A DNA stretch of 32,000 nucleotides from Candidatus Heimdallarchaeota archaeon (GCA_030149205.1 JASBSB010000003.1:150001-182000); one strand, 5' to 3'; counted from the first letter of the stretch, positions 23,439 through 32,000 are shown. Numbers and translations: made by a program. Notes: a model not told the origin generated them from the letters alone.

Positions 23439-23498
23439 ACTTATCAGTTGGCTTTGTTAGTATTCATAGAGTTAATATCTGTTAATCTATTGAAAACC

Positions 23499-23927
23499 AT
23501 GCCTTGGGAATATTTAGAAGAAGAAGCCATAGCCGATATCGGTATAAAAGTAACTTCAACTGAGCTAAACACCCTTTTTGAAGACTCAGTATTGTCTATT
23601 TGTAACCTGATGACAGACCTTAAGACATTCAATGCGGATCTTGAGAAAACTGAAAATTTTGAGGATAAATCTGTTGAAATGCTGTTGTATCAGGTATTAG
23701 AAGAAGTGGTGTATTTAAAGGACGCTGAGCTGTTTTTTGTAAAATCTAACAAAGTTAGAGTCTCCCCAGACAACGACCACTTCATCGCGACTGTTACATT
23801 TGTAGGTGGAAGATTTGATCCCTCGATACATGAAATTGGAAACGATATCAAGGCAATTACATTACATGATTTTTATGTAAAGAACACTAAAGATGGATTT
23901 GAGGCACATTTTATTATTGATATCTAG
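23499..23927 (+). CDS. Archease (RtcB tRNA ligase cofactor family)
   Basis: MPWEYLEEEAIADIGI at the N-terminus and DIKAITLH...AHFIIDI at the C-terminus. The ATG at 23499 fits the family length (142 aa) better than the upstream start. Confidence 0.88.
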   Translation: MPWEYLEEEAIADIGIKVTSTELNTLFEDSVLSICNLMTDLKTFNADLEKTENFEDKSVEMLLYQVLEEVVYLKDAELFFVKSNKVRVSPDNDHFIATVTFVGGRFDPSIHEIGNDIKAITLHDFYVKNTKDGFEAHFIIDI

Positions 23928-24715
23928 TCTTGGAATGTAACTTTTTCAATATCACTAGGAAGTGCGACAGAGTTGAATCCACCATCAACGAAAATAGTTT
24001 GACCAGAAATTCCAGAGCTTAAATCACTTAATAGGAACACTGCGGCCTTCCCAACATCATCCTGATAAACATTTCTTCTGAGGGGGGCCGTATGTTTCAT
24101 GAACCCTAGAATATTATCAAATCCGGGAACATGACTTGCAGCTAATGTTTTTATCGGTCCAGATGAAATAGCATTAATTCTGTGACCCGCAGTCCCTATA
24201 TCGTTTGAAAGTTCTCTCACAAAAGATTCTAATGCTGCCTTTGCAACACCCATTAACCGATATCCTGGTACAACACGTGTCGATCCCAGATATGTAAGGG
24301 TAATTATACTGCTGTTAGGATTTAATTTGCGAAGGCTATGTCTAACAATTCGCTGCAAAGAATATGCAGATATTGTTAACGCTGTATTAAAATCCGCTTC
24401 TGAGGTATATATTAAAGGTTTTTCAAGAGCTGAAGCGGGTGCGTAGCCTATGGCGTGAACAATCATATCGAATTTTCCCTCTAAGGAATTAAAAAAGTCC
24501 CGAACTTGCTCTTCATAGGCAACATCACATTCAGACATGTTTTCAACGAAATCAACATCTTTTGTTAAACCGTACAACCTTGATCTAAATCGTGTTTGAT
24601 ATGAGAGGGTAATTTTAGCCCCAGCTTTTGCAAGCCATTTACAGATCGCCCACGCGATACTATCTTCTGATGCCACTCCAAAAACAATGGCTCTTTTTCC
24701 TGTTAAATCAATCAT
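23924..24715 (-). CDS. fabI: Enoyl-[acyl-carrier-protein] reductase (NADH), FabI type
   Basis: Motifs GVASEDSIAWAI, VHAIGYAP, ISAYSL, catalytic Y-x6-K (YRLMGVAK), NAISSGPIKTLAA and VDGG. ATG at 24715, with GGAGG 9 nt upstream on the minus strand. Confidence 0.93.
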   Translation of the reverse strand: MIDLTGKRAIVFGVASEDSIAWAICKWLAKAGAKITLSYQTRFRSRLYGLTKDVDFVENMSECDVAYEEQVRDFFNSLEGKFDMIVHAIGYAPASALEKPLIYTSEADFNTALTISAYSLQRIVRHSLRKLNPNSSIITLTYLGSTRVVPGYRLMGVAKAALESFVRELSNDIGTAGHRINAISSGPIKTLAASHVPGFDNILGFMKHTAPLRRNVYQDDVGKAAVFLLSDLSSGISGQTIFVDGGFNSVALPSDIEKVTFQD

Positions 24716-27700
24716 TTTTTGTTTCCTCCATAATTGCCAATGACATGGCCCATTTATCATTTACTGAAGATTTCACAAGTATTTTGCTATCTCCAATTAA
24801 AACACTATATTTATGTGTTGAATGTCCATTTTGGACTTTGGTACTTTTTAATTTAGCTTTTAATCCTGTACCTTTAGCCTTCATTGCACTTTCCTTTATA
24901 CTCCAAAGCTGAGTTATAATTTGAATTTTTTCAGGTTCGATAGAAAATTCCTCAATTTCATTTTTTGTAAATGCTGTTTTAATGAAACTTTTATCCCTCT
25001 CTTCTACTTTCTCAAGGTCGAATCCTAAGTTAAGATACTCATCAGAAACAGCAATTGCATATCCATTAGAATGAGAGATTGTCACAGGAAAATCAACACC
25101 TTGATAAACCCCCTTAGGTTTACCCATCTCATCCTTGACTATTTCTATTTCATCCTCTGGAAGGTTAAATTTGATAGATATTGCTCTCTTAGCTGCAATC
25201 TGACCTGCGCTCCATTCCATTCTTCTTTTTTTGACTTTTAACCTGCTGTATAGAACTTTCCCAGCCTTCGTAAAATAGCTATCAAGAACATCTTCATTGA
25301 TATCCTCAAGAACCTTTGTTGAGAGCACCACACCATTTTCACTTAGTTTGTATAACTGATGTTCTAACAGAGCCACCTCAATTTCATCTTCTGATATTTT
25401 AAGTGAATGAGTAACTGGACTTTTCCCAGTGTGAATCATTTCAAATTCTCTTAATTCACAAACGAGTTCTAACTTTTCATTAAAGGCATAAACATTATAT
25501 AAACTAGTCATTGAGTTTTCTGCTAAAAATATTGCAAACACATAGGTCGCAGGAAGATCTGAAGTGTAATGTTGAACTTTTCGGACTTTGGAAGGAAGTG
25601 ACATTACCCCCTTTTGCAATAACCCATAAAGACCAGCTGTCTGAAAGCAGGCTTCAATAAGCAGAGGTTGAAACGAAACCTTTGCATCTTGATTATTAAA
25701 GAGGGTTCCTGTATCAGTGTCAATTTTGGTAAGAATTGAATTCTCAGAGAGAGATGCAACAAAATCAATCACTTGATATTTTGGTCCATGAAAAAATAGA
25801 TCATAGATTTGGGCTTTCTGCATCAGAATACCCTCTTGTGAGATCAGGGAGTTCATTTCTTCGGGAAAATACCTCATTGCAGGTAGACTTTTCCCCTCAA
25901 TTACACCTACACGAAAATGATCTCTAAGATCTCCAAGCTGTTTTCCATCTGGGCCAATGAATTTTGACTTAAGGTGGAGATGAGTCACTCCCATCAATTC
26001 ATTGCTTTCTTCTGGTATCACAAATACCTCAAGTGGTTGATCCCTAGGTAGTTTAATTGGGGACTCAAATGAAACATCAACTAATGATCGGGGTATCCCA
26101 TCAAACCTTTGAACAAATTCAATTATGGTTTCTAAACCCATCACACCAGGGAGAACCGCTTTATCATCAATACGATGATGATCCAAATACAAATCTCGGC
26201 TGAGGGAAAGGAGTCGACCCGCATATGGAATTCCACCTTCAATTGAATAGAAATCTATCATTGGATATTCTGAGTCAACCTCAGATTTTGAGGAGATAGT
26301 TGACGGAATTTCAAACTTTGCTGATTGTTCATTTTTGTTATTGCCTACTGAACCTCTTTTACTGGAAATTTCCTCGTTTACTTCAACTCCTTCTATTGAA
26401 TCCTGTCTATCATGTTTGGCCAAATGACCTTTCTTAATTGGAGTGTTTTCTAGTAATTTTCCTAATTCACCACTTATAACCACCTCAGTCTCATTTCCAT
26501 AAAAAAATTCATCAAGAAATCTCTTGACACCTTCTTGTGGAGAGATTGGAGTTACACCAGCCATCGAAAGTACTGTCATGGTTGAACCTCTAGTAGCCAT
26601 TCCAACCTCGCTCCACGCTGACCAATCGATGGCGGTGGATTCAATACCTCTTGACCTTAGTTTATCACTGGTTTTTGTTAGATACTCGTTTGCGGCAGAG
26701 TAATCAACCTGTGTGGCATTTCCAAACCGTCCAGCAACTGAGGTAAACAGAATAACTCTATCGGTATCTTCTGTGATAAAAGGTTCTATTGATTGATACC
26801 CTAAAACCTTGGTGTTGTAGACTAAGGAGAACTCATCCTTTGATTTTTGTTTGGTGGGACGAGAGATTTCAATTCCTGCACCATGGATCACGATGTTAAA
26901 ATGATCTATATCAAGTTCATTCATATTTACCTTAATTGCTTCTCTGACTTCGTCTTGATTTGTAATGTCACAAGAGATGTACAATACACTTGCTCCGCTC
27001 TCTTGGTATTTTTTCATTGATTTATACACATTTGCTGATTTTATGAATTTTGAATATTCGTTTTCAAGTAATACAGGCGTAACTTTATCATTTTTAGATT
27101 TAAGTTTTTGAAGAAGATCAGATTTAAATTTTTTAAGCTGTTCTGAATCATAGGTTGAAAGGTCTTCTGCGTTTGAGAGGACTTTAGTTCTTCCAATAAC
27201 AATGATCTTTGGATTTTTGAAGCGTTTAATTAGGTTAGAGGTTGTTTCAAACGTGATCCCTTGGGCACCACCAGTCACTAAGAGTGTTGGAGATTCAGGT
27301 AGTTTTATACTCTCTGGAGAGAGATCCCCATTTTCTAACAGTGCGGTTGCTTTAGCAGATTGTGTTGAGACAAGTATCTCTGTTAAATCATGGTTAAGGT
27401 ACTGTAAAGCCGTCTTTATATCATCTGAGACAATTATGCTTCCCTTAAGTTTTGAAAATTCAGCCTTTAATGCTTTAAGCATTCCACCAATTGCCCCTTC
27501 TAAGGGAGAGATTTTATTTATAGAATCTGTCTCTGAATTTATTGAAATAAGATTAAGAGACAAAATATCATCTATATCATTCTTAATTCTATCAAAAAAT
27601 GAGGGGATATCTGTTATGAGATTTTCATCAATATTTAACAAAACCAGATTTTTTGGAAGTGAATTTGGAATACTGTTGATCAAATTTAATTCTGATATTC

Positions 27701-30700
27701 CTTCTCCGTTATGTGCTAAAAACGTGAATACTGAAAGATCCAGATTTGTGGGGGTAATATCAACAGTGTCTAGAGTAAATCTCTTACTCTTAGGAATACT
27801 TTCAGACTTTGAACTGTAAGCATCTCTAATATTATCTAACAGGTTGCCTACAGTTAAGCCAGTTTCTATTTTGGTTAACTTTAAGTCAAATAAGGTTGAT
27901 AGACGATTGAACAGAGTTTCAATATCTGGCTCTGTCAGTCCTAAATCAGTTCTTAGGTTAAGCTTTAAATCAAGAAGTTCAGGTGGGTAACCAGTTATCT
28001 CTATAATTAACCCTAAGGTTTTGGATTTAATTTCCTCTGCGAAATCTAAGCTAGTGTCCTTTTTGGTATTTTGAGAATGTACAATGGTTTGATTTTGTTT
28101 TTCAATAACTTTCGAACCCTGTAAATTGTCCTTAACAAATTGAGTTACCTTTCTAATTGTACTGTATTGACTTATATCTAAGTCCTCAATCAACGGAATT
28201 CCAAATTTTTCTCGGATTACACCAATTAATTCTGCTTGTTTGACTGTATCTATTCCAAGGTCTGCCTCCATATCTAAATCTGGCTCTAACATGGTTTCAG
28301 GATACCCTGTTTTCTCAGACACTATATTGGTCACGGTGCTTAGCACTTCATCTGCTGAGATAGGTGTACTTATATCACTCTTCACCTCAGGGCTTTTACT
28401 CATATTTTTATCTTGTTCAATTTGATTGTGTTCAGTAATTTTTGAGGCTTCTGTGGTGTTTTCGATAACAAATTCAGCGACCCTGTTAATAGTATTATAT
28501 TGACTTATATCAAGGTCTTCGATCAATGGTATCCCAAAATTGTCTCGGATTACTCCAATAAGTTCAGCTTGTTTCACTGTATCTATGCCTAGGTCAGCTT
28601 CCATATCCAGGTCTGGTTCAAGCATTTCAACTGGATAACCAGTTTTCTCAGCAACAATCTGAATAACTTGACTCAATATGTCTTCATTTACAGAACTTCT
28701 GAGATTCTTTTTCTTGGTTTTAGCACCTGGCCCTTCTACAATGACATTTACGGTCTCCTCAGTAGGACGTTCTGTGTTTGATTTTACAAACTCAGATATT
28801 TTTTGTATCGTGTTGTATTGTGAGATATCAAGGTCATCAATTAAGGGAATTCCGAACTCCTCTCTAATTATGCCAATGAGTTCAGCTTGTTTCACTGTAT
28901 CTATACCAAGATCAGCTTCCATATCAAGATCTGGCTCTAGCATCTCGACTGGATAACCAGTTTGTTCTGAAACCCTTTCTATTATTCGATTAAGTATTTT
29001 TGAATCTGTTAAACTTGCTTGGTGTTGATCAATTGGTTTAGAACTTGAGGCAGTGGGATTTATCATTGATTGATCTTTACTTATTTGTTCAATCACAAAT
29101 TCTGAAATTTTTTTAATTGTATTATATTCAGAAAGGTCGAGGTCTTCTAATAGGGGAATTTCAAAACTCTCTCTGATTATTCCAAATAATTCAGCCTGTT
29201 TAACTGTATCAATGCCTAAGTCTGCCTCCATATCAAGTTCGGGATCTAACATTTCTTTAGGATAGCCTGTTTTCTCAGCAACAATTTCTAAAACTCTCAT
29301 TAACACTTCAGGAGATGAAGAATTTTGTTTATTTGCTTGACCTTGAGTTTTAATAGAAGTAGTCTTAGTGGAAGATGAGTTCTTAGAAAGATCCATTTTG
29401 CTTAATTGTCGATTAGGAGAGGTGGATAGAGGCTTTAACAATTCGAGGATTTTTTGAACCGTGAATTCTTCATCAGATAAATTTTTTAATGTACTTTCAT
29501 CAATGTACGCAATAAAGTCTTCTTTTCTCATTCCAATTTCAGTTATTAAATTTAGTGAGTTGGTTAACAATTCCGGAGGATATCCAGTGACCATTGAAAG
29601 AATACCTAGTGGAGTTTTTGGCTCATTTACTTCATGTTTGATTGTATTTGAAACTGTCAAACTTTTCGGAAGTTTGGATACTTTAGGATCAACTGGAGTT
29701 TCCCTTGTGCTTATGACTGTTTCTTGAAAAGAGCCAATTGATGGGTTTTCTTTTACTCTGAGTGTCTTTCCAACCTCAATGAGGTCTTCTTCGGATGACC
29801 CTATGGATTTAAGCCATTTTCCATATAGCATTGTCTTTCGAGATCCATAGCTTGCTTTTTTGTATAAGACAAATGCCAGTTGTGAACCGAAACCAGCGGC
29901 TAACCGAATCGCATAAGTTATATCATGCTTTTGTCCATCACCAAACTTTAAATTTCCAAGAGCTGGATCAGGTTGTTTTAGATTTGCAATTGGTGGGACA
30001 ACTCCAAATTCTAAAGTTTTTAATGCAATTGCATCTTCAATCCCAGCACCCATAGGATGTCCGGTAAATCCTTTTGTGTTAGTTATAAAAATATTTTGAG
30101 CATGATCCCCAAAAACGTGTCTTAAGGATTCGATCTCTGCAGCTGCACTACCACCTCTTGCGGGGGTGTAGGTCTCATGACTCATAAAAATACAAGACTC
30201 AGAAATCTCTTCAGGAGTTAATGCGTGTTCTGCTGTTACTTTCTTAAAAAAGTACTCAAATTCAGAAGAGATATGAGTCACATCAAGCCTAGTTCCATGA
30301 AATGCTGAGTTTGCATAGTGAGAGCTTAGGATTTGAGCTATAGGGGCAATGCCTCTTCTTTTAGCTTCTTCCTCGGTTTCAATTACCAAACCAACAGCAC
30401 CCATTCCCACGATCATGCCATGCCTTCTCTCATCAAAAGGCAGTGCTGCTTTTGTAACGTCTCCCTCGGTTGTAGCTGCTCCAGAGGATAAAAATCCTGA
30501 ACCTATCCAGGGGAACAGATGATCACTCGTGACATTGTCAGAACCAATAATTATTACTCGTTTACATCTCCCGTTTCGTATCCAGTCTTGAGCGATTCCA
30601 ACAGCCTGAGTTGTGGATGCACACGCAGCATTCACCTGAGTGTTTGGACCTCTGGCTTTGATGAGTTGTGCAAATTGAGAATGACCCATTGATAAAATTC

Positions 30701-32000
30701 TGAAGAGAAACTTTCGATTGAATATATACTCAGGTGTATTAGATTCAAGCTCTTCTAATATATTTTCAATGAATTCTATTATTCTCTCCTTGTCCTCAGA
30801 ATCTTTTAGTTTTCGATGAATTTCAGAGTATATTATACGTGTTAATGTTTTTTCATCATCAGATTTTTTCCACTTGTAATACCGTGTGAGTTCATCTACC
30901 AGACTATCAAACCCAGGAAATGCCGAAGCAAAAATTACGCCTGTATCATCTTGTAACTCTTTGGGTAATACCCAATCACCTGGGAGGTAACTTCCAGTTG
31001 TAGTTTTGACGTATTCTCTCTGAAGTGGGATGTAAGCATCCTTAAGGGCTTCAAGGCCTGCTGCAATCGCAAGTTTTGTTGATGAATCATAGGTTTCAAT
31101 TAATTTTTCTGCTAACTGAAATTCTGCCACTAAATCAAATTTTCCGGGTTGTGCAGCTAATTTAATGACATCAGACCGCTTGTTGATTTTGTCTAGGGTT
31201 GGGCTCCCCTTGTCTCTTTTTACTAATTTGACTATGTTTTTGTCAGTTTGTTCATCTAAAGCGACCTCTGATAATTGATCAATGAGGTTTTCTCCCCTAA
31301 ATATTCTTTGGATATTTTTTGAATCAAAGATTTCTTTGTATTTACCCGGAAGACCTACCCCTGTACCTGTAACTACAATATTATCAAGGTTTATACCCAT
31401 TCGACTAATTTTATCTGAAAGCTTAAGGGAGGATTCTTGCTTAAACCTGTTAAAACTCTCTTCTACAAACTTGTTAAGTAAGTCACCTTGGAACTGCAAG
31501 TAAGACTTAAACATAGGGTCATATTTTGCATCTGCTGTGATATAATTATCTGAATTAAAACTGTGTTGAATTTCACCTTGAAACTCATCTTTGGTTAAGG
31601 CAGTACGAATTTGAGGTGAAATCTCCTTTACTTGAGGAGTTTTTGTAAATTTGTTGGAGTATGAAAAGTGGGATAATGTTGGTGTGGCTACCTTAACATC
31701 ATAAATACTCTTGTCAATCAAATTTCCTTCAATGGATGGCTTGATCACCATTTTCCCAGCAGCAAACAATCCGGCTAATGCCTCATTGAGTTGCTTGGTT
31801 TCTCCCTTCTTGGGATGAACTGTTATTAAAGTTAGTGAGTTCTCATCTGAAAGTATTGTTTCCACAAAGCTAGATAAAGCTCTTTTTGGTCCGACTTCAA
31901 CAAAGATTCTCCCACCATTTTTATATAAATTATTAATTTGTTGAACCCATTCTACCGCAGATTCAACTTGTTTCTCCAGTAGAGATCTTATCTTCTCAGG
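24708..32000 (-). CDS. Type I PKS/FAS megasynthase, 5'-truncated: AT(end)-KS-ACP repeats-KR-DH-PPTase
   Basis: The frame is open from base 32000 (PEKIRSLLEKQVESAVEWVQQINNLYKNGGRIFVEVGPKRAL, the end of an AT domain), so the GTG at 31865 is not the start. KS triad NAACAS / SHETYT / GHPMG. Four LGIDTVKQAE repeats. KR motifs VTGGAQGI and YSAAN. DH motif LDHHRIDDKAVLPG. PPTase motifs SHS, GFDLE and WSIKESAMKAKGTGL. Confidence 0.95.
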   Translation of the reverse strand, partial: PEKIRSLLEKQVESAVEWVQQINNLYKNGGRIFVEVGPKRALSSFVETILSDENSLTLITVHPKKGETKQLNEALAGLFAAGKMVIKPSIEGNLIDKSIYDVKVATPTLSHFSYSNKFTKTPQVKEISPQIRTALTKDEFQGEIQHSFNSDNYITADAKYDPMFKSYLQFQGDLLNKFVEESFNRFKQESSLKLSDKISRMGINLDNIVVTGTGVGLPGKYKEIFDSKNIQRIFRGENLIDQLSEVALDEQTDKNIVKLVKRDKGSPTLDKINKRSDVIKLAAQPGKFDLVAEFQLAEKLIETYDSSTKLAIAAGLEALKDAYIPLQREYVKTTTGSYLPGDWVLPKELQDDTGVIFASAFPGFDSLVDELTRYYKWKKSDDEKTLTRIIYSEIHRKLKDSEDKERIIEFIENILEELESNTPEYIFNRKFLFRILSMGHSQFAQLIKARGPNTQVNAACASTTQAVGIAQDWIRNGRCKRVIIIGSDNVTSDHLFPWIGSGFLSSGAATTEGDVTKAALPFDERRHGMIVGMGAVGLVIETEEEAKRRGIAPIAQILSSHYANSAFHGTRLDVTHISSEFEYFFKKVTAEHALTPEEISESCIFMSHETYTPARGGSAAAEIESLRHVFGDHAQNIFITNTKGFTGHPMGAGIEDAIALKTLEFGVVPPIANLKQPDPALGNLKFGDGQKHDITYAIRLAAGFGSQLAFVLYKKASYGSRKTMLYGKWLKSIGSSEEDLIEVGKTLRVKENPSIGSFQETVISTRETPVDPKVSKLPKSLTVSNTIKHEVNEPKTPLGILSMVTGYPPELLTNSLNLITEIGMRKEDFIAYIDESTLKNLSDEEFTVQKILELLKPLSTSPNRQLSKMDLSKNSSSTKTTSIKTQGQANKQNSSSPEVLMRVLEIVAEKTGYPKEMLDPELDMEADLGIDTVKQAELFGIIRESFEIPLLEDLDLSEYNTIKKISEFVIEQISKDQSMINPTASSSKPIDQHQASLTDSKILNRIIERVSEQTGYPVEMLEPDLDMEADLGIDTVKQAELIGIIREEFGIPLIDDLDISQYNTIQKISEFVKSNTERPTEETVNVIVEGPGAKTKKKNLRSSVNEDILSQVIQIVAEKTGYPVEMLEPDLDMEADLGIDTVKQAELIGVIRDNFGIPLIEDLDISQYNTINRVAEFVIENTTEASKITEHNQIEQDKNMSKSPEVKSDISTPISADEVLSTVTNIVSEKTGYPETMLEPDLDMEADLGIDTVKQAELIGVIREKFGIPLIEDLDISQYSTIRKVTQFVKDNLQGSKVIEKQNQTIVHSQNTKKDTSLDFAEEIKSKTLGLIIEITGYPPELLDLKLNLRTDLGLTEPDIETLFNRLSTLFDLKLTKIETGLTVGNLLDNIRDAYSSKSESIPKSKRFTLDTVDITPTNLDLSVFTFLAHNGEGISELNLINSIPNSLPKNLVLLNIDENLITDIPSFFDRIKNDIDDILSLNLISINSETDSINKISPLEGAIGGMLKALKAEFSKLKGSIIVSDDIKTALQYLNHDLTEILVSTQSAKATALLENGDLSPESIKLPESPTLLVTGGAQGITFETTSNLIKRFKNPKIIVIGRTKVLSNAEDLSTYDSEQLKKFKSDLLQKLKSKNDKVTPVLLENEYSKFIKSANVYKSMKKYQESGASVLYISCDITNQDEVREAIKVNMNELDIDHFNIVIHGAGIEISRPTKQKSKDEFSLVYNTKVLGYQSIEPFITEDTDRVILFTSVAGRFGNATQVDYSAANEYLTKTSDKLRSRGIESTAIDWSAWSEVGMATRGSTMTVLSMAGVTPISPQEGVKRFLDEFFYGNETEVVISGELGKLLENTPIKKGHLAKHDRQDSIEGVEVNEEISSKRGSVGNNKNEQSAKFEIPSTISSKSEVDSEYPMIDFYSIEGGIPYAGRLLSLSRDLYLDHHRIDDKAVLPGVMGLETIIEFVQRFDGIPRSLVDVSFESPIKLPRDQPLEVFVIPEESNELMGVTHLHLKSKFIGPDGKQLGDLRDHFRVGVIEGKSLPAMRYFPEEMNSLISQEGILMQKAQIYDLFFHGPKYQVIDFVASLSENSILTKIDTDTGTLFNNQDAKVSFQPLLIEACFQTAGLYGLLQKGVMSLPSKVRKVQHYTSDLPATYVFAIFLAENSMTSLYNVYAFNEKLELVCELREFEMIHTGKSPVTHSLKISEDEIEVALLEHQLYKLSENGVVLSTKVLEDINEDVLDSYFTKAGKVLYSRLKVKKRRMEWSAGQIAAKRAISIKFNLPEDEIEIVKDEMGKPKGVYQGVDFPVTISHSNGYAIAVSDEYLNLGFDLEKVEERDKSFIKTAFTKNEIEEFSIEPEKIQIITQLWSIKESAMKAKGTGLKAKLKSTKVQNGHSTHKYSVLIGDSKILVKSSVNDKWAMSLAIMEETKND
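28130..29307 (-). repeat. Four tandem ACP-coding repeats
   Basis: The core TGYP..ML.P.LDMEADLGIDTVKQAEL.G.IR..F.IPL..DLD.S.Y.TI repeats four times. Thr codons at 29207, 28898, 28580 and 28247 give spacings of 103, 106 and 111 aa. Confidence 0.95.

What the first reader, a model, noticed from the sequence alone, without database searches (positions are those of the whole stretch)
28245..29207. All four ACP domains have threonine at the phosphopantetheine attachment site
Seen: each repeat reads DLGID-T-VKQAE, with codon ACA at 29207-29205, 28898-28896, 28580-28578 and 28247-28245, while surrounding synonymous sites differ between repeats. No Ser lies near the helix II start. Known: ACPs are primed on the Ser of (D/E)xGxDS (PfaA: LGIDS), and I know of no demonstrated Thr-phosphopantetheinylation. 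Inference: either the fused PPTase primes Thr, which would be new carrier-protein chemistry and would explain keeping a dedicated cis PPTase, or these ACPs are non-catalytic and a Ser-ACP lies outside the window. Four independent sequencing errors are implausible.
Basis: partly seen in the sequence, partly recalled or inferred. Interest (0 to 1): 0.88.

Follow-up and report, generated by a model that had tools for sequence, protein, structure and literature searches.

The report
Threonine-type acyl carrier domains, Asgard megasynthase
All four carrier domains of a giant self-priming fatty-acid/polyketide synthase in a Heimdall-type Asgard archaeon have threonine where every studied carrier protein has the serine that holds the phosphopantetheine arm. 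This is the fixed rule in a large bacterial and archaeal enzyme family, so the arm is probably attached to threonine, a linkage I could not find described.

Summary
Four Pfam PP-binding domains read DLGIDTVKQAE, with ACA at the stated coordinates, and the Thr aligns with the Ppant Ser of solved ACPs.

It is neither an error nor a decayed site:
- It marks the 'Type R' Pfa-like family (KS-AT-KS-ACPn-KR-DH). Thr occupies 492 of 496 sites in 94 homologues, and 232 of 234 sites in 80 loci chosen by their second KS domain. All four Thr codons are used.
- Classic PfaA has Ser at 150 of 150 sites.

The host is an Asgard archaeon, 93.5% complete. Its only detectable carrier domains are these four, and its only PPTase is the Sfp-type domain fused to the same protein.

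The gene sits in a complete operon: KASIII-like, BC, BCCP, CT, megasynthase, FabI.

Family PPTases are fused, or found at the locus, in 50 of 57 informative loci.

Two Ca. Heimdallarchaeum genomes carry a Ser-Thr-Ser array next to the same kind of cis PPTase.

Best reading, about 0.75: Thr is the working phosphopantetheine acceptor. This is inferred and not shown; mass spectrometry is needed. I found no report of it in print. E. coli ACP S36T is described as unmodifiable.

This scan has noted the same trait on many other genomes. What this window adds is the Asgard host, the absence of any other carrier or PPTase, and the natural Ser/Thr mix.

The parts
24708..32000 (-). 3' 7.3 kb of the megasynthase gene. 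The full gene is G000:C7:174708-184553, 3281 aa, with the order KS1-AT-KS2-ACPx4-KR-DH-PPTase. The window holds the AT C-terminus onward.
   Evidence: TIGR02813 (PfaA subfamily) scores 1099 bits against a cut-off of 1010.
29094..29297 (-). ACP1 (PP-binding), site Thr codon ACA at 29207-29205
28785..28988 (-). ACP2 (PP-binding), site Thr codon ACA at 28898-28896
28467..28670 (-). ACP3 (PP-binding), site Thr codon ACA at 28580-28578
28134..28337 (-). ACP4 (PP-binding), site Thr codon ACA at 28247-28245
24711..25355 (-). C-terminal Sfp-type 4'-phosphopantetheinyl transferase domain (P0001 residues about 2215-2430). It is the only ACPS-family hit in the genome. The motifs GKP, ISHS, GFDLE and WSIKESAMKAKG are intact.
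29979..31416 (-). Second ketosynthase domain (KS2; the 'CLF' of Shulse & Allen). It is the family marker that co-occurs with Thr-ACPs. The active-site Cys and two His are invariant.
23924..24760 (-). FabI-type enoyl-ACP reductase gene. Its called ORF overlaps the 3' end of the megasynthase ORF.
   Evidence: adh_short_C2, E 3.5e-69

Best explanation
The four domains are working acyl carrier domains of an iterative type I fatty-acid/polyketide synthase. The threonine at the start of helix II is their phosphopantetheine acceptor. The Sfp-type PPTase domain at the C-terminus of the same polypeptide transfers 4'-phosphopantetheine from CoA to the Thr hydroxyl. Its conserved Glu (Sfp E151 equivalent) would act as base, and the Asp/Glu pair would hold Mg2+. 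The holo-ACPs then carry malonyl and acyl thioesters between AT, KS1/KS2, KR, DH and the trans FabI. Malonyl-CoA comes from the acyl-CoA carboxylase encoded upstream.

Shown: the sequence facts, the family-wide fixation of Thr, its linkage to a PPTase, and the absence of any other carrier or PPTase in this genome.

Inferred: that Thr is modified, and that the product is a fatty acyl chain.

Unknown: why Thr is kept instead of Ser. Possibilities are insulation from AcpS- or AcpH-type enzymes, or a more stable phosphodiester; both are speculation.
For: 1. The Thr aligns with the Ppant Ser of solved ACPs.

2. Selection acts for Thr specifically. In 94 homologues with KS-AT-KS-ACPn-KR-DH architecture the site is T 492, S 3, N 1. 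In 26 classic PfaA proteins it is S 150 of 150. In 80 species loci picked by KS2 alone it is T 232, S 2, with codons ACG 109, ACC 95, ACT 16 and ACA 12. Ser is one base change away from Thr.

3. No other Ser or Cys is conserved in the domain.

4. The genome's only PP-binding hits are these four, and its only ACPS hit is the fused domain. That PPTase therefore has no other detectable client.

5. The PPTase catalytic residues are invariant in 67 family PPTases: H96, D114, E116, E156 and K160, corresponding to Sfp H90, D107, E109, E151 and K155.

6. The PPTase is linked to the synthase. It is fused in all 20 archaeal relatives examined. Among the 80 loci it is fused in 5, the next gene in 26 and elsewhere in the locus in 19, out of 57 loci with downstream DNA.

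7. There is a natural Ser/Thr mix. Two Ca. Heimdallarchaeum genomes (one is CP084166.1) carry an S-T-S array with a fused PPTase, and one of them sits inside the archaeal Thr clade of the KS1 tree.

8. The operon is complete: KASIII-like, BC, BCCP, CT, megasynthase, FabI. The synthase is found in 44 of 61 related genomes.

9. In the complex model of PPTase, ACP3, CoA and Mg the score is 0.83 and the best control is 0.01. That mark was reached by 58 of 80 solved complexes and 2 of 110 mismatched pairs. The runs agree in at least 96% of contacts, and the partner's pLDDT is at least 83. Thr44 touches Glu156 and Asp43 touches His96. This may reflect memory of solved Sfp-PCP complexes.
Against: No chemistry has been done, and no mass or structure shows Ppant on Thr in any family member.

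The one experimental precedent points the other way. E. coli ACP S36T 'cannot be post-translationally modified by 4'-PP' and does not complement (PMC3340395). That result concerns AcpS, not an Sfp-type enzyme.

The assembly is 93.5% complete, so a Ser-ACP in the missing part cannot be excluded. A same-genus MAG has an 85-aa Ser-type ACP ORF on a 3.2-kb contig.

Three Thermoplasmatota-like homologues and Ca. Heimdallarchaeum do have at least one Ser-ACP. In those proteins a Ser could be doing the work.

The docking model cannot distinguish Thr from Ser reactivity.
Confidence: 0.75

Rival explanations
1. The Thr-ACPs stay unmodified and serve as scaffold or docking domains. The real carrier is a Ser-ACP supplied in trans, lying in the unassembled 6.5% of this genome.
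For: E. coli ACP S36T is not modified. A same-genus MAG carries a small Ser-type ACP ORF on a 3.2-kb contig. A few family members have one Ser-ACP beside their Thr-ACPs.
Against: No other carrier is found in G000 by four independent searches. A scaffold would not keep Thr at 99% through all four codons while Ser is one mutation away. The PPTase would have no client, yet its catalytic residues are invariant. Of 94 Thr-type homologues, 91 have no Ser-ACP at all. The neighbours of the same-genus Ser-ACP contig have no syntenic counterpart in G000.
Confidence: 0.08
2. The megasynthase works on CoA thioesters without a carrier, as proposed for ACP-independent archaeal fatty-acid synthesis. On this view the ACP array and PPTase are inherited baggage.
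For: Archaea generally lack ACP and AcpS (established knowledge). The family appears to have moved between domains, since bacterial and archaeal members interleave.
Against: The ACP core motif is nearly invariant, and the PPTase catalytic residues are conserved across at least 67 proteins and many phyla. The four repeats show heavy synonymous divergence with conserved protein sequence. The synthase is retained in 44 of 61 related genomes, and always with the PPTase in the 20 examined.
Confidence: 0.05
3. Thr is modified, but not with plain 4'-phosphopantetheine through a phosphodiester. It might carry a different CoA-derived group or be directly O-acylated. Alternatively the arm sits on another residue.
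For: Nothing direct. Its only support is that the chemistry is untested. Helix II also differs from Ser-type PfaA (TVKQA against SIKRV).
Against: The PPTase is an ordinary Sfp-type enzyme with all CoA/Mg motifs. No other hydroxyl or thiol residue is specific to the Thr-type domains. KS, KR and DH active sites need a long flexible thioester arm (established knowledge of FAS/PKS).
Confidence: 0.05

Closest known systems
'Type R' secondary-lipid (Pfa-like) synthase gene cluster, Shulse & Allen 2011 (PMC3098273)
   Same: It is a pfaA homologue with KS-MAT-'CLF'-ACP(3-6)-KR followed by a PPTase gene, sometimes with an ACC gene between them. It occurs in Acidobacteria, Elusimicrobia and Chloroflexi, and its product is unknown. 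My loci show the same cassette in the same phyla. The window's KS1 groups with these proteins and not with classic PfaA.
   Different: Here the PPTase is fused to the C-terminus, the ER is FabI rather than an acyl-CoA dehydrogenase with ETF, and the host is an Asgard archaeon. The paper does not mention the Thr: 'threonine' and 'serine' each occur 0 times in its text. It calls KS2 a CLF, although KS2 keeps its Cys and both His.
PfaA of bacterial PUFA synthases, with its PPTase PfaE (TIGR02813)
   Same: Both have tandem ACPs with the core MEADLGID-x-(I/V)K, KS-AT at the N-terminus, KR-DH after the ACPs and a dedicated Sfp-type PPTase. TIGR02813 scores 1099 bits, above its cut-off of 1010.
   Different: PfaA has Ser at 150 of 150 sites and no KS2. 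It works with PfaB, PfaC and PfaD; no PfaD_N hit was found in this genome. The one PfaE compared (Shewanella ANA-3) differs from the Thr-family PPTases at conserved positions: R45A, W49G, G52V, S93N, E119R and R121S.
Sfp-PCP and AcpS-ACP priming of Ser (PDB 4MRT, 1QR0; E. coli ACP S36T)
   Same: The PPTase fold and motifs are the same (E 4e-9 to Sfp). The docking mode is predicted to be the same, with the acceptor residue at the catalytic Glu.
   Different: The acceptor is Thr. In E. coli the S36T change is reported to block modification.
Cis-PPTase megasynthases (fungal FAS alpha subunit; Pseudoalteromonas PfaC-PPTase fusion)
   Same: A PPTase domain sits in the same chain as its carrier. PDB 7bc4, a FAS alpha subunit, appears as a weak hit. 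The Pseudoalteromonas fusion is noted in PMC3098273.
   Different: Those systems prime Ser. The fungal PPTase is AcpS-like, whereas this one is Sfp-like.

Membership tests
Acyl carrier protein / PP-binding (PF00550) | Profile match to the four-helix carrier domain | tested here: met
   Four domains match, each above the cut-off when scanned alone. They align to solved ACPs.
Acyl carrier protein / PP-binding (PF00550) | Conserved Ser of the (D/E)xGxDS motif as Ppant acceptor | tested here: not met
   Thr is at the aligned position in all four domains.
Acyl carrier protein / PP-binding (PF00550) | Covalent 4'-phosphopantetheine on the domain | not testable with these tools
   This needs mass spectrometry.
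Type R secondary-lipid synthase (Shulse & Allen 2011) | pfaA homologue with KS-MAT-KS-like('CLF')-ACP(3-6)-KR | tested here: met
   The order is KS1-AT-KS2-ACPx4-KR-DH.
Type R secondary-lipid synthase (Shulse & Allen 2011) | PPTase encoded directly downstream | tested here: met
   The PPTase is present but fused in frame, not a separate gene.
Type R secondary-lipid synthase (Shulse & Allen 2011) | KS phylogeny groups it with Type R members | tested here: inconclusive
   KS1 falls with the Thr-type bacterial proteins, from Acidobacteria-, Chloroflexi- and Elusimicrobia-labelled MAGs, on the opposite side of a 100% branch from classic PfaA. The five named Type R strains themselves were not in my tree.
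PUFA synthase PfaA (TIGR02813) | Score above the curated cut-off of the subfamily model | tested here: met
   1099.1 bits against a cut-off of 1010.1.
PUFA synthase PfaA (TIGR02813) | KS-MAT-ACPn-KR order, with PfaB/C/D partners | tested here: not met
   An extra KS2 lies between AT and the ACPs. The neighbours are ACC subunits, a KASIII-like gene and FabI. No PfaD_N hit was found in the genome. PfaB and PfaC were not searched genome-wide.
Sfp-type 4'-phosphopantetheinyl transferase (PF01648) | Profile match and the catalytic/Mg motifs (GxDxE; W/FxxKE(S/A)xxK; His of ISHS) | tested here: met
   Pfam E 9.9e-11 and Sfp E 4e-9. D114, E116, E156, K160 and H96 are conserved.

The most novel reading that the evidence does not exclude
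O-(4'-phosphopantetheinyl)-threonine is a natural modification. It would be used as the rule by a whole family of megasynthases present in at least 599 species genomes across more than eight phyla of Bacteria and Archaea, and made by a dedicated clade of Sfp-type PPTases. In Heimdall-type Asgard archaea this self-priming enzyme would be the only carrier-protein system. With ACC and FabI it would form a complete ACP-dependent fatty-acid synthase in relatives of the archaeal ancestor of eukaryotes.
Probability: 0.7. Interest if true: 0.9.

Novelty: new variant of a known kind. Interest (0 to 1): 0.8.

Why it matters
Carrier-protein biochemistry, annotation rules and PKS/NRPS mining tools all assume a Ser acceptor. 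S-to-T mutants are used as standard 'apo' controls. A large natural family that uses Thr would have several consequences:

- It would add a new form of a universal cofactor attachment.
- It would define PPTases with a new acceptor specificity, useful as labelling tools orthogonal to Sfp and AcpS.
- It would correct annotations that may now treat these domains as inactive.

In this genome it also bears on the lipid divide. An Asgard archaeon encodes a complete, self-priming, ACP-dependent fatty-acid-type pathway, conserved in 44 of 61 related genomes. The whole pathway hinges on these Thr-ACPs being functional.

Tried and rejected
**Sequencing or assembly error.** Rejected. The repeats are 62-67% identical in DNA, and the trait is family-wide with all four Thr codons.

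**Alternative acceptor residue.** Rejected. The helix-III Ser of the window's ACPs is only 30% conserved in the family, and no Cys is conserved.

**Ser-ACP in the unseen N-terminus.** Rejected. That part is KS1-AT.

**Ser-ACP elsewhere in the genome.** Not found with PF00550, TIGR00517 or PF14573. It was also not found with phmmer using three stand-alone ACP queries, or with hmmsearch --max on all six-frame ORFs of 35 aa or more.

**Literature.** Ten full-text searches were run for Thr-phosphopantetheinylation, the GIDT motifs, Asgard or Heimdall PKS, and 'replaced by threonine'. None gave a report of a Thr acceptor. Subscription-only papers are not covered.

**Papers read in full text.** The JACS Au 2026 paper on Pfa hybrids mentions only the conserved Ser. 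The Minicystis paper's 'threonine' hits concern kinases.

**PPTase comparison.** I compared the Thr-family PPTases with only one PfaE and with Sfp. This gave family-specific residues but no demonstrable Thr pocket.

**Structure prediction.** No separate structure prediction of the ACP was run. The complex job served that purpose.

Full report
**Observation**

The 5'-open minus-strand ORF at 24708-32000 translates without a stop (P0001, 2430 aa). Pfam finds, in order:
- the end of an acyltransferase;
- a ketosynthase;
- four PP-binding domains;
- KR;
- a PKS-type DH;
- a C-terminal ACPS-family PPTase.

Each carrier segment scored alone passes the PP-binding cut-off. All four read EADLGIDTVKQAE.

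phmmer against all PDB chains aligns the Thr with the phosphopantetheinyl-Ser of PigH, AcpP and other solved ACPs.

The four repeats are 62-67% identical in DNA, and about half of their identical-residue codons differ synonymously. They are old copies under purifying selection.

**The whole gene and its host**

The window is G000:C7:150001-182000 of a 3.31-Mb, 35% GC assembly of 12 contigs, 93.5% complete.

The small-subunit rRNA is archaeal (1198 bits). A eukaryote-like actin is present (Pfam Actin 445 bits). The closest named relatives of the gene are Ca. Heimdallarchaeota MAGs and Ca. Heimdallarchaeum aukensis. The host is therefore a Heimdall-type Asgard archaeon.

The full gene encodes 3281 aa with the order KS1-AT-KS2-ACPx4-KR-DH-PPTase.

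It lies in a co-directional operon: KASIII-like, biotin carboxylase, BCCP, carboxyltransferase, megasynthase, FabI-type enoyl reductase. This is every activity needed for ACP-dependent fatty-acid-type synthesis, including the malonyl-CoA supply and the priming enzyme.

**Is there another carrier or PPTase?**

PF00550 finds only these four domains in the genome, and PF01648 finds only the fused domain. TIGR00517 and PF14573 add nothing.

I also ran two searches of my own over all six-frame ORFs of 35 aa or more. One was phmmer with three stand-alone ACPs taken from relatives. The other was hmmsearch --max with a broad ACP profile. Both hit only the megasynthase.

The caveat is the 6.5% of the genome that is not assembled. 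In addition, one same-genus MAG has an 85-aa Ser-type ACP ORF on a 3.2-kb contig with no counterpart here.

**The Thr is a family trait**

I collected the 120 best homologues of the ACP region.
- 94 have the KS-AT-KS-ACPn-KR-DH architecture. Their 496 ACP domains carry T 492, S 3, N 1 at the site.
- 26 are classic PfaA (Shewanella, Colwellia, Vibrio, Psychromonas). They lack KS2 and carry S at 150 of 150 sites.

The helix II motif differs as a block: D-T-V-K-Q-A-E in the first group against D-S-I-K-R-V-E in the second.

To avoid defining the group by the trait, I searched GTDB species genomes with the KS2 domain alone (alignment A1). The best 80 loci come from Heimdallarchaeota, Thermoplasmatota, Myxococcota, Chloroflexota, Acidobacteriota, Actinomycetota (including the cultured Planobispora takensis NBRC 109077), Elusimicrobiota and Bacteroidota.

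Their ACP sites are T 232 and S 2, with Thr codons ACG 109, ACC 95, ACT 16 and ACA 12. Ser is one base change away from Thr, so the amino acid itself is under selection.

No other Ser or Cys is conserved in the Thr-type domains. The helix-III Ser of the window's copies is present in only 30% of them.

A KS1 tree of 110 proteins puts all Ser-type proteins on one side of a branch with 100% support. The S/T label needs only one change on that tree.

**Linkage to a PPTase**

In three bacterial loci a 250-268-aa ACPS gene directly follows the megasynthase.

Of the 80 loci, 57 have a detectable ACP and DNA beyond the synthase. Among these:
- the PPTase is fused in 5;
- it is the next gene in 26;
- it lies elsewhere in the locus in 19, mostly about 5.7 kb downstream;
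- in the remaining 7, the locus ends just about where the PPTase would begin.

In the two loci of the 5.7-kb kind that I inspected (L075 and L088), a large gene of 1863 or 1826 aa fills the gap. In L075 it is a single-chain acetyl-CoA carboxylase.

All 20 related archaeal genes I extracted have the PPTase fused. The synthase is found in 44 of 61 related genomes.

In 67 family PPTases the catalytic and cofactor residues are conserved. H96, D114, E116, E156 and K160 correspond to Sfp H90, D107, E109, E151 and K155.

These PPTases also share residues that differ in the one PfaE compared (Shewanella ANA-3): R45, W49, G52, S93, E119 and R121. Whether any of these relates to Thr is unknown.

**A natural experiment**

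Two single-contig genomes of one genus have an S-T-S array next to the usual fused PPTase. One is Ca. Heimdallarchaeum aukensis, CP084166.1. The three sites read DLGIDSIKAAEI, DLGIDTVKQAEIF and DLGVDSIKIAEI.

The one of the two that entered the KS1 tree sits inside a well-supported set of 12 Thr-only archaeal proteins.

Three Thermoplasmatota-like proteins have one divergent Ser-ACP ahead of four or five Thr-ACPs.

So Ser and Thr replace each other at this position beside the same kind of cis PPTase. That is what one expects if both are acceptors.

**Docking model**

I modelled the PPTase domain with ACP3, CoA and Mg. The score was 0.83 against a best control of 0.01. That mark was reached by 58 of 80 solved complexes and by 2 of 110 mismatched pairs. 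The three runs agree in at least 96% of contacts, and the partner's pLDDT is at least 83.

In the model, Thr44 of the ACP touches Glu156, the Sfp E151 equivalent. Asp43 touches His96. Val45 packs against E116, W152, F125, A129 and R121.

This is a textbook pair, so the pass may come from memory of solved Sfp-PCP complexes. It shows likeness, not reactivity of Thr.

**What is known**

Shulse & Allen (2011, PMC3098273) described this cassette as 'Type R'. It is a pfaA homologue with KS-MAT-CLF-ACP(3-6)-KR followed by a PPTase gene, with an ACC gene in between in Koribacter. It occurs in Acidobacteria, Elusimicrobia and Chloroflexi, and its product is unknown.

Their text contains neither 'threonine' nor 'serine'.

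E. coli ACP S36T is reported as a variant that 'cannot be post-translationally modified by 4'-PP', and it does not complement (PMC3340395). It is still used as an apo control.

Ten full-text searches found no report of a Thr acceptor. The library lacks most subscription journals, so this is absence in what I could search.

Earlier notes of this scan describe the same trait on many other genomes, mostly marine Group II archaea and bacteria. I took from them the pointer to Type R and checked it myself.

**Verdict**

The most likely explanation is that Thr is the working phosphopantetheine acceptor, primed by the fused Sfp-type PPTase (about 0.75). The main rival is unmodified domains with a carrier supplied in trans (about 0.08).

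The chemistry is inferred, not shown. Intact-mass and MS/MS analysis of the ACP array co-expressed with its PPTase would settle it.

This window adds three things to the family picture:
- an Asgard host in which the Thr-ACPs and the cis PPTase are the only carrier system detectable;
- a complete operon that depends on them;
- the natural Ser/Thr mix in sister genomes.

Noticed in passing
window 29979-31416 (-); alignment A1: The second ketosynthase-like domain, called 'CLF' in the Type R description, keeps an invariant active-site Cys and both His across 34 diverse members. It also has an invariant motif, SHETYTPARGGS, in place of the usual HGTGT. It looks like an active, unusual KS rather than a Cys-less chain-length factor.
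   Followed up: partly
window 29400-29700 and 27750-28050 (-); P0001 about 815-880 and 1330-1400: The four ACPs are flanked by two degenerate ACP-like segments (…GYPPELL…EIGMRKED… and …GYPPELL…DLGLTEPD…). They have no Ser or Thr at the site and no Pfam hit. In some relatives the downstream one reads EMGIDNA. They may be pseudo-ACP docking elements.
   Followed up: partly
L127:3024-3269 (-), L129:3017-3271 (-), L133:3039-3341 (-): Several related Heimdall-type genomes encode an ACP-like ORF with Lys or Glu at the acceptor position (DLGLDKNG, DLGMNEDD), in open frames of 82-101 aa. It cannot be primed in the usual way. No counterpart was found in this genome.
   Followed up: partly
L130:2503-2760 (+) (same-genus MAG G003, 3.2-kb contig): This is an 85-aa ACP ORF with a canonical GLDS site on a small contig of 38% GC. 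The ACP itself has no counterpart in G000, and only one neighbouring ORF has paralogues there. It could be an accessory cluster or contamination.
   Followed up: partly
L075:4158-21574 and L088 (Planobispora takensis): Acidobacterial and actinobacterial members have the cassette ETF-alpha, acyl-CoA dehydrogenase, megasynthase, a large downstream gene, PPTase. In L075 the large gene is a single-chain, eukaryote-like ACC (BC-BCCP-central-CT, 1863 aa). The enoyl-reduction step may therefore use an ACAD/ETF pair instead of FabI.
   Followed up: partly
L137:7400-8842 (-) and window 23448-23927 (+): RtcB lies upstream and archease downstream of the lipid operon, so the two partners of the tRNA-ligase system flank it.
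   Followed up: no
G000:C2:232008-233114 (-): A eukaryote-like actin gene (Pfam Actin 445 bits) is present. This is consistent with an Asgard host.
   Followed up: no
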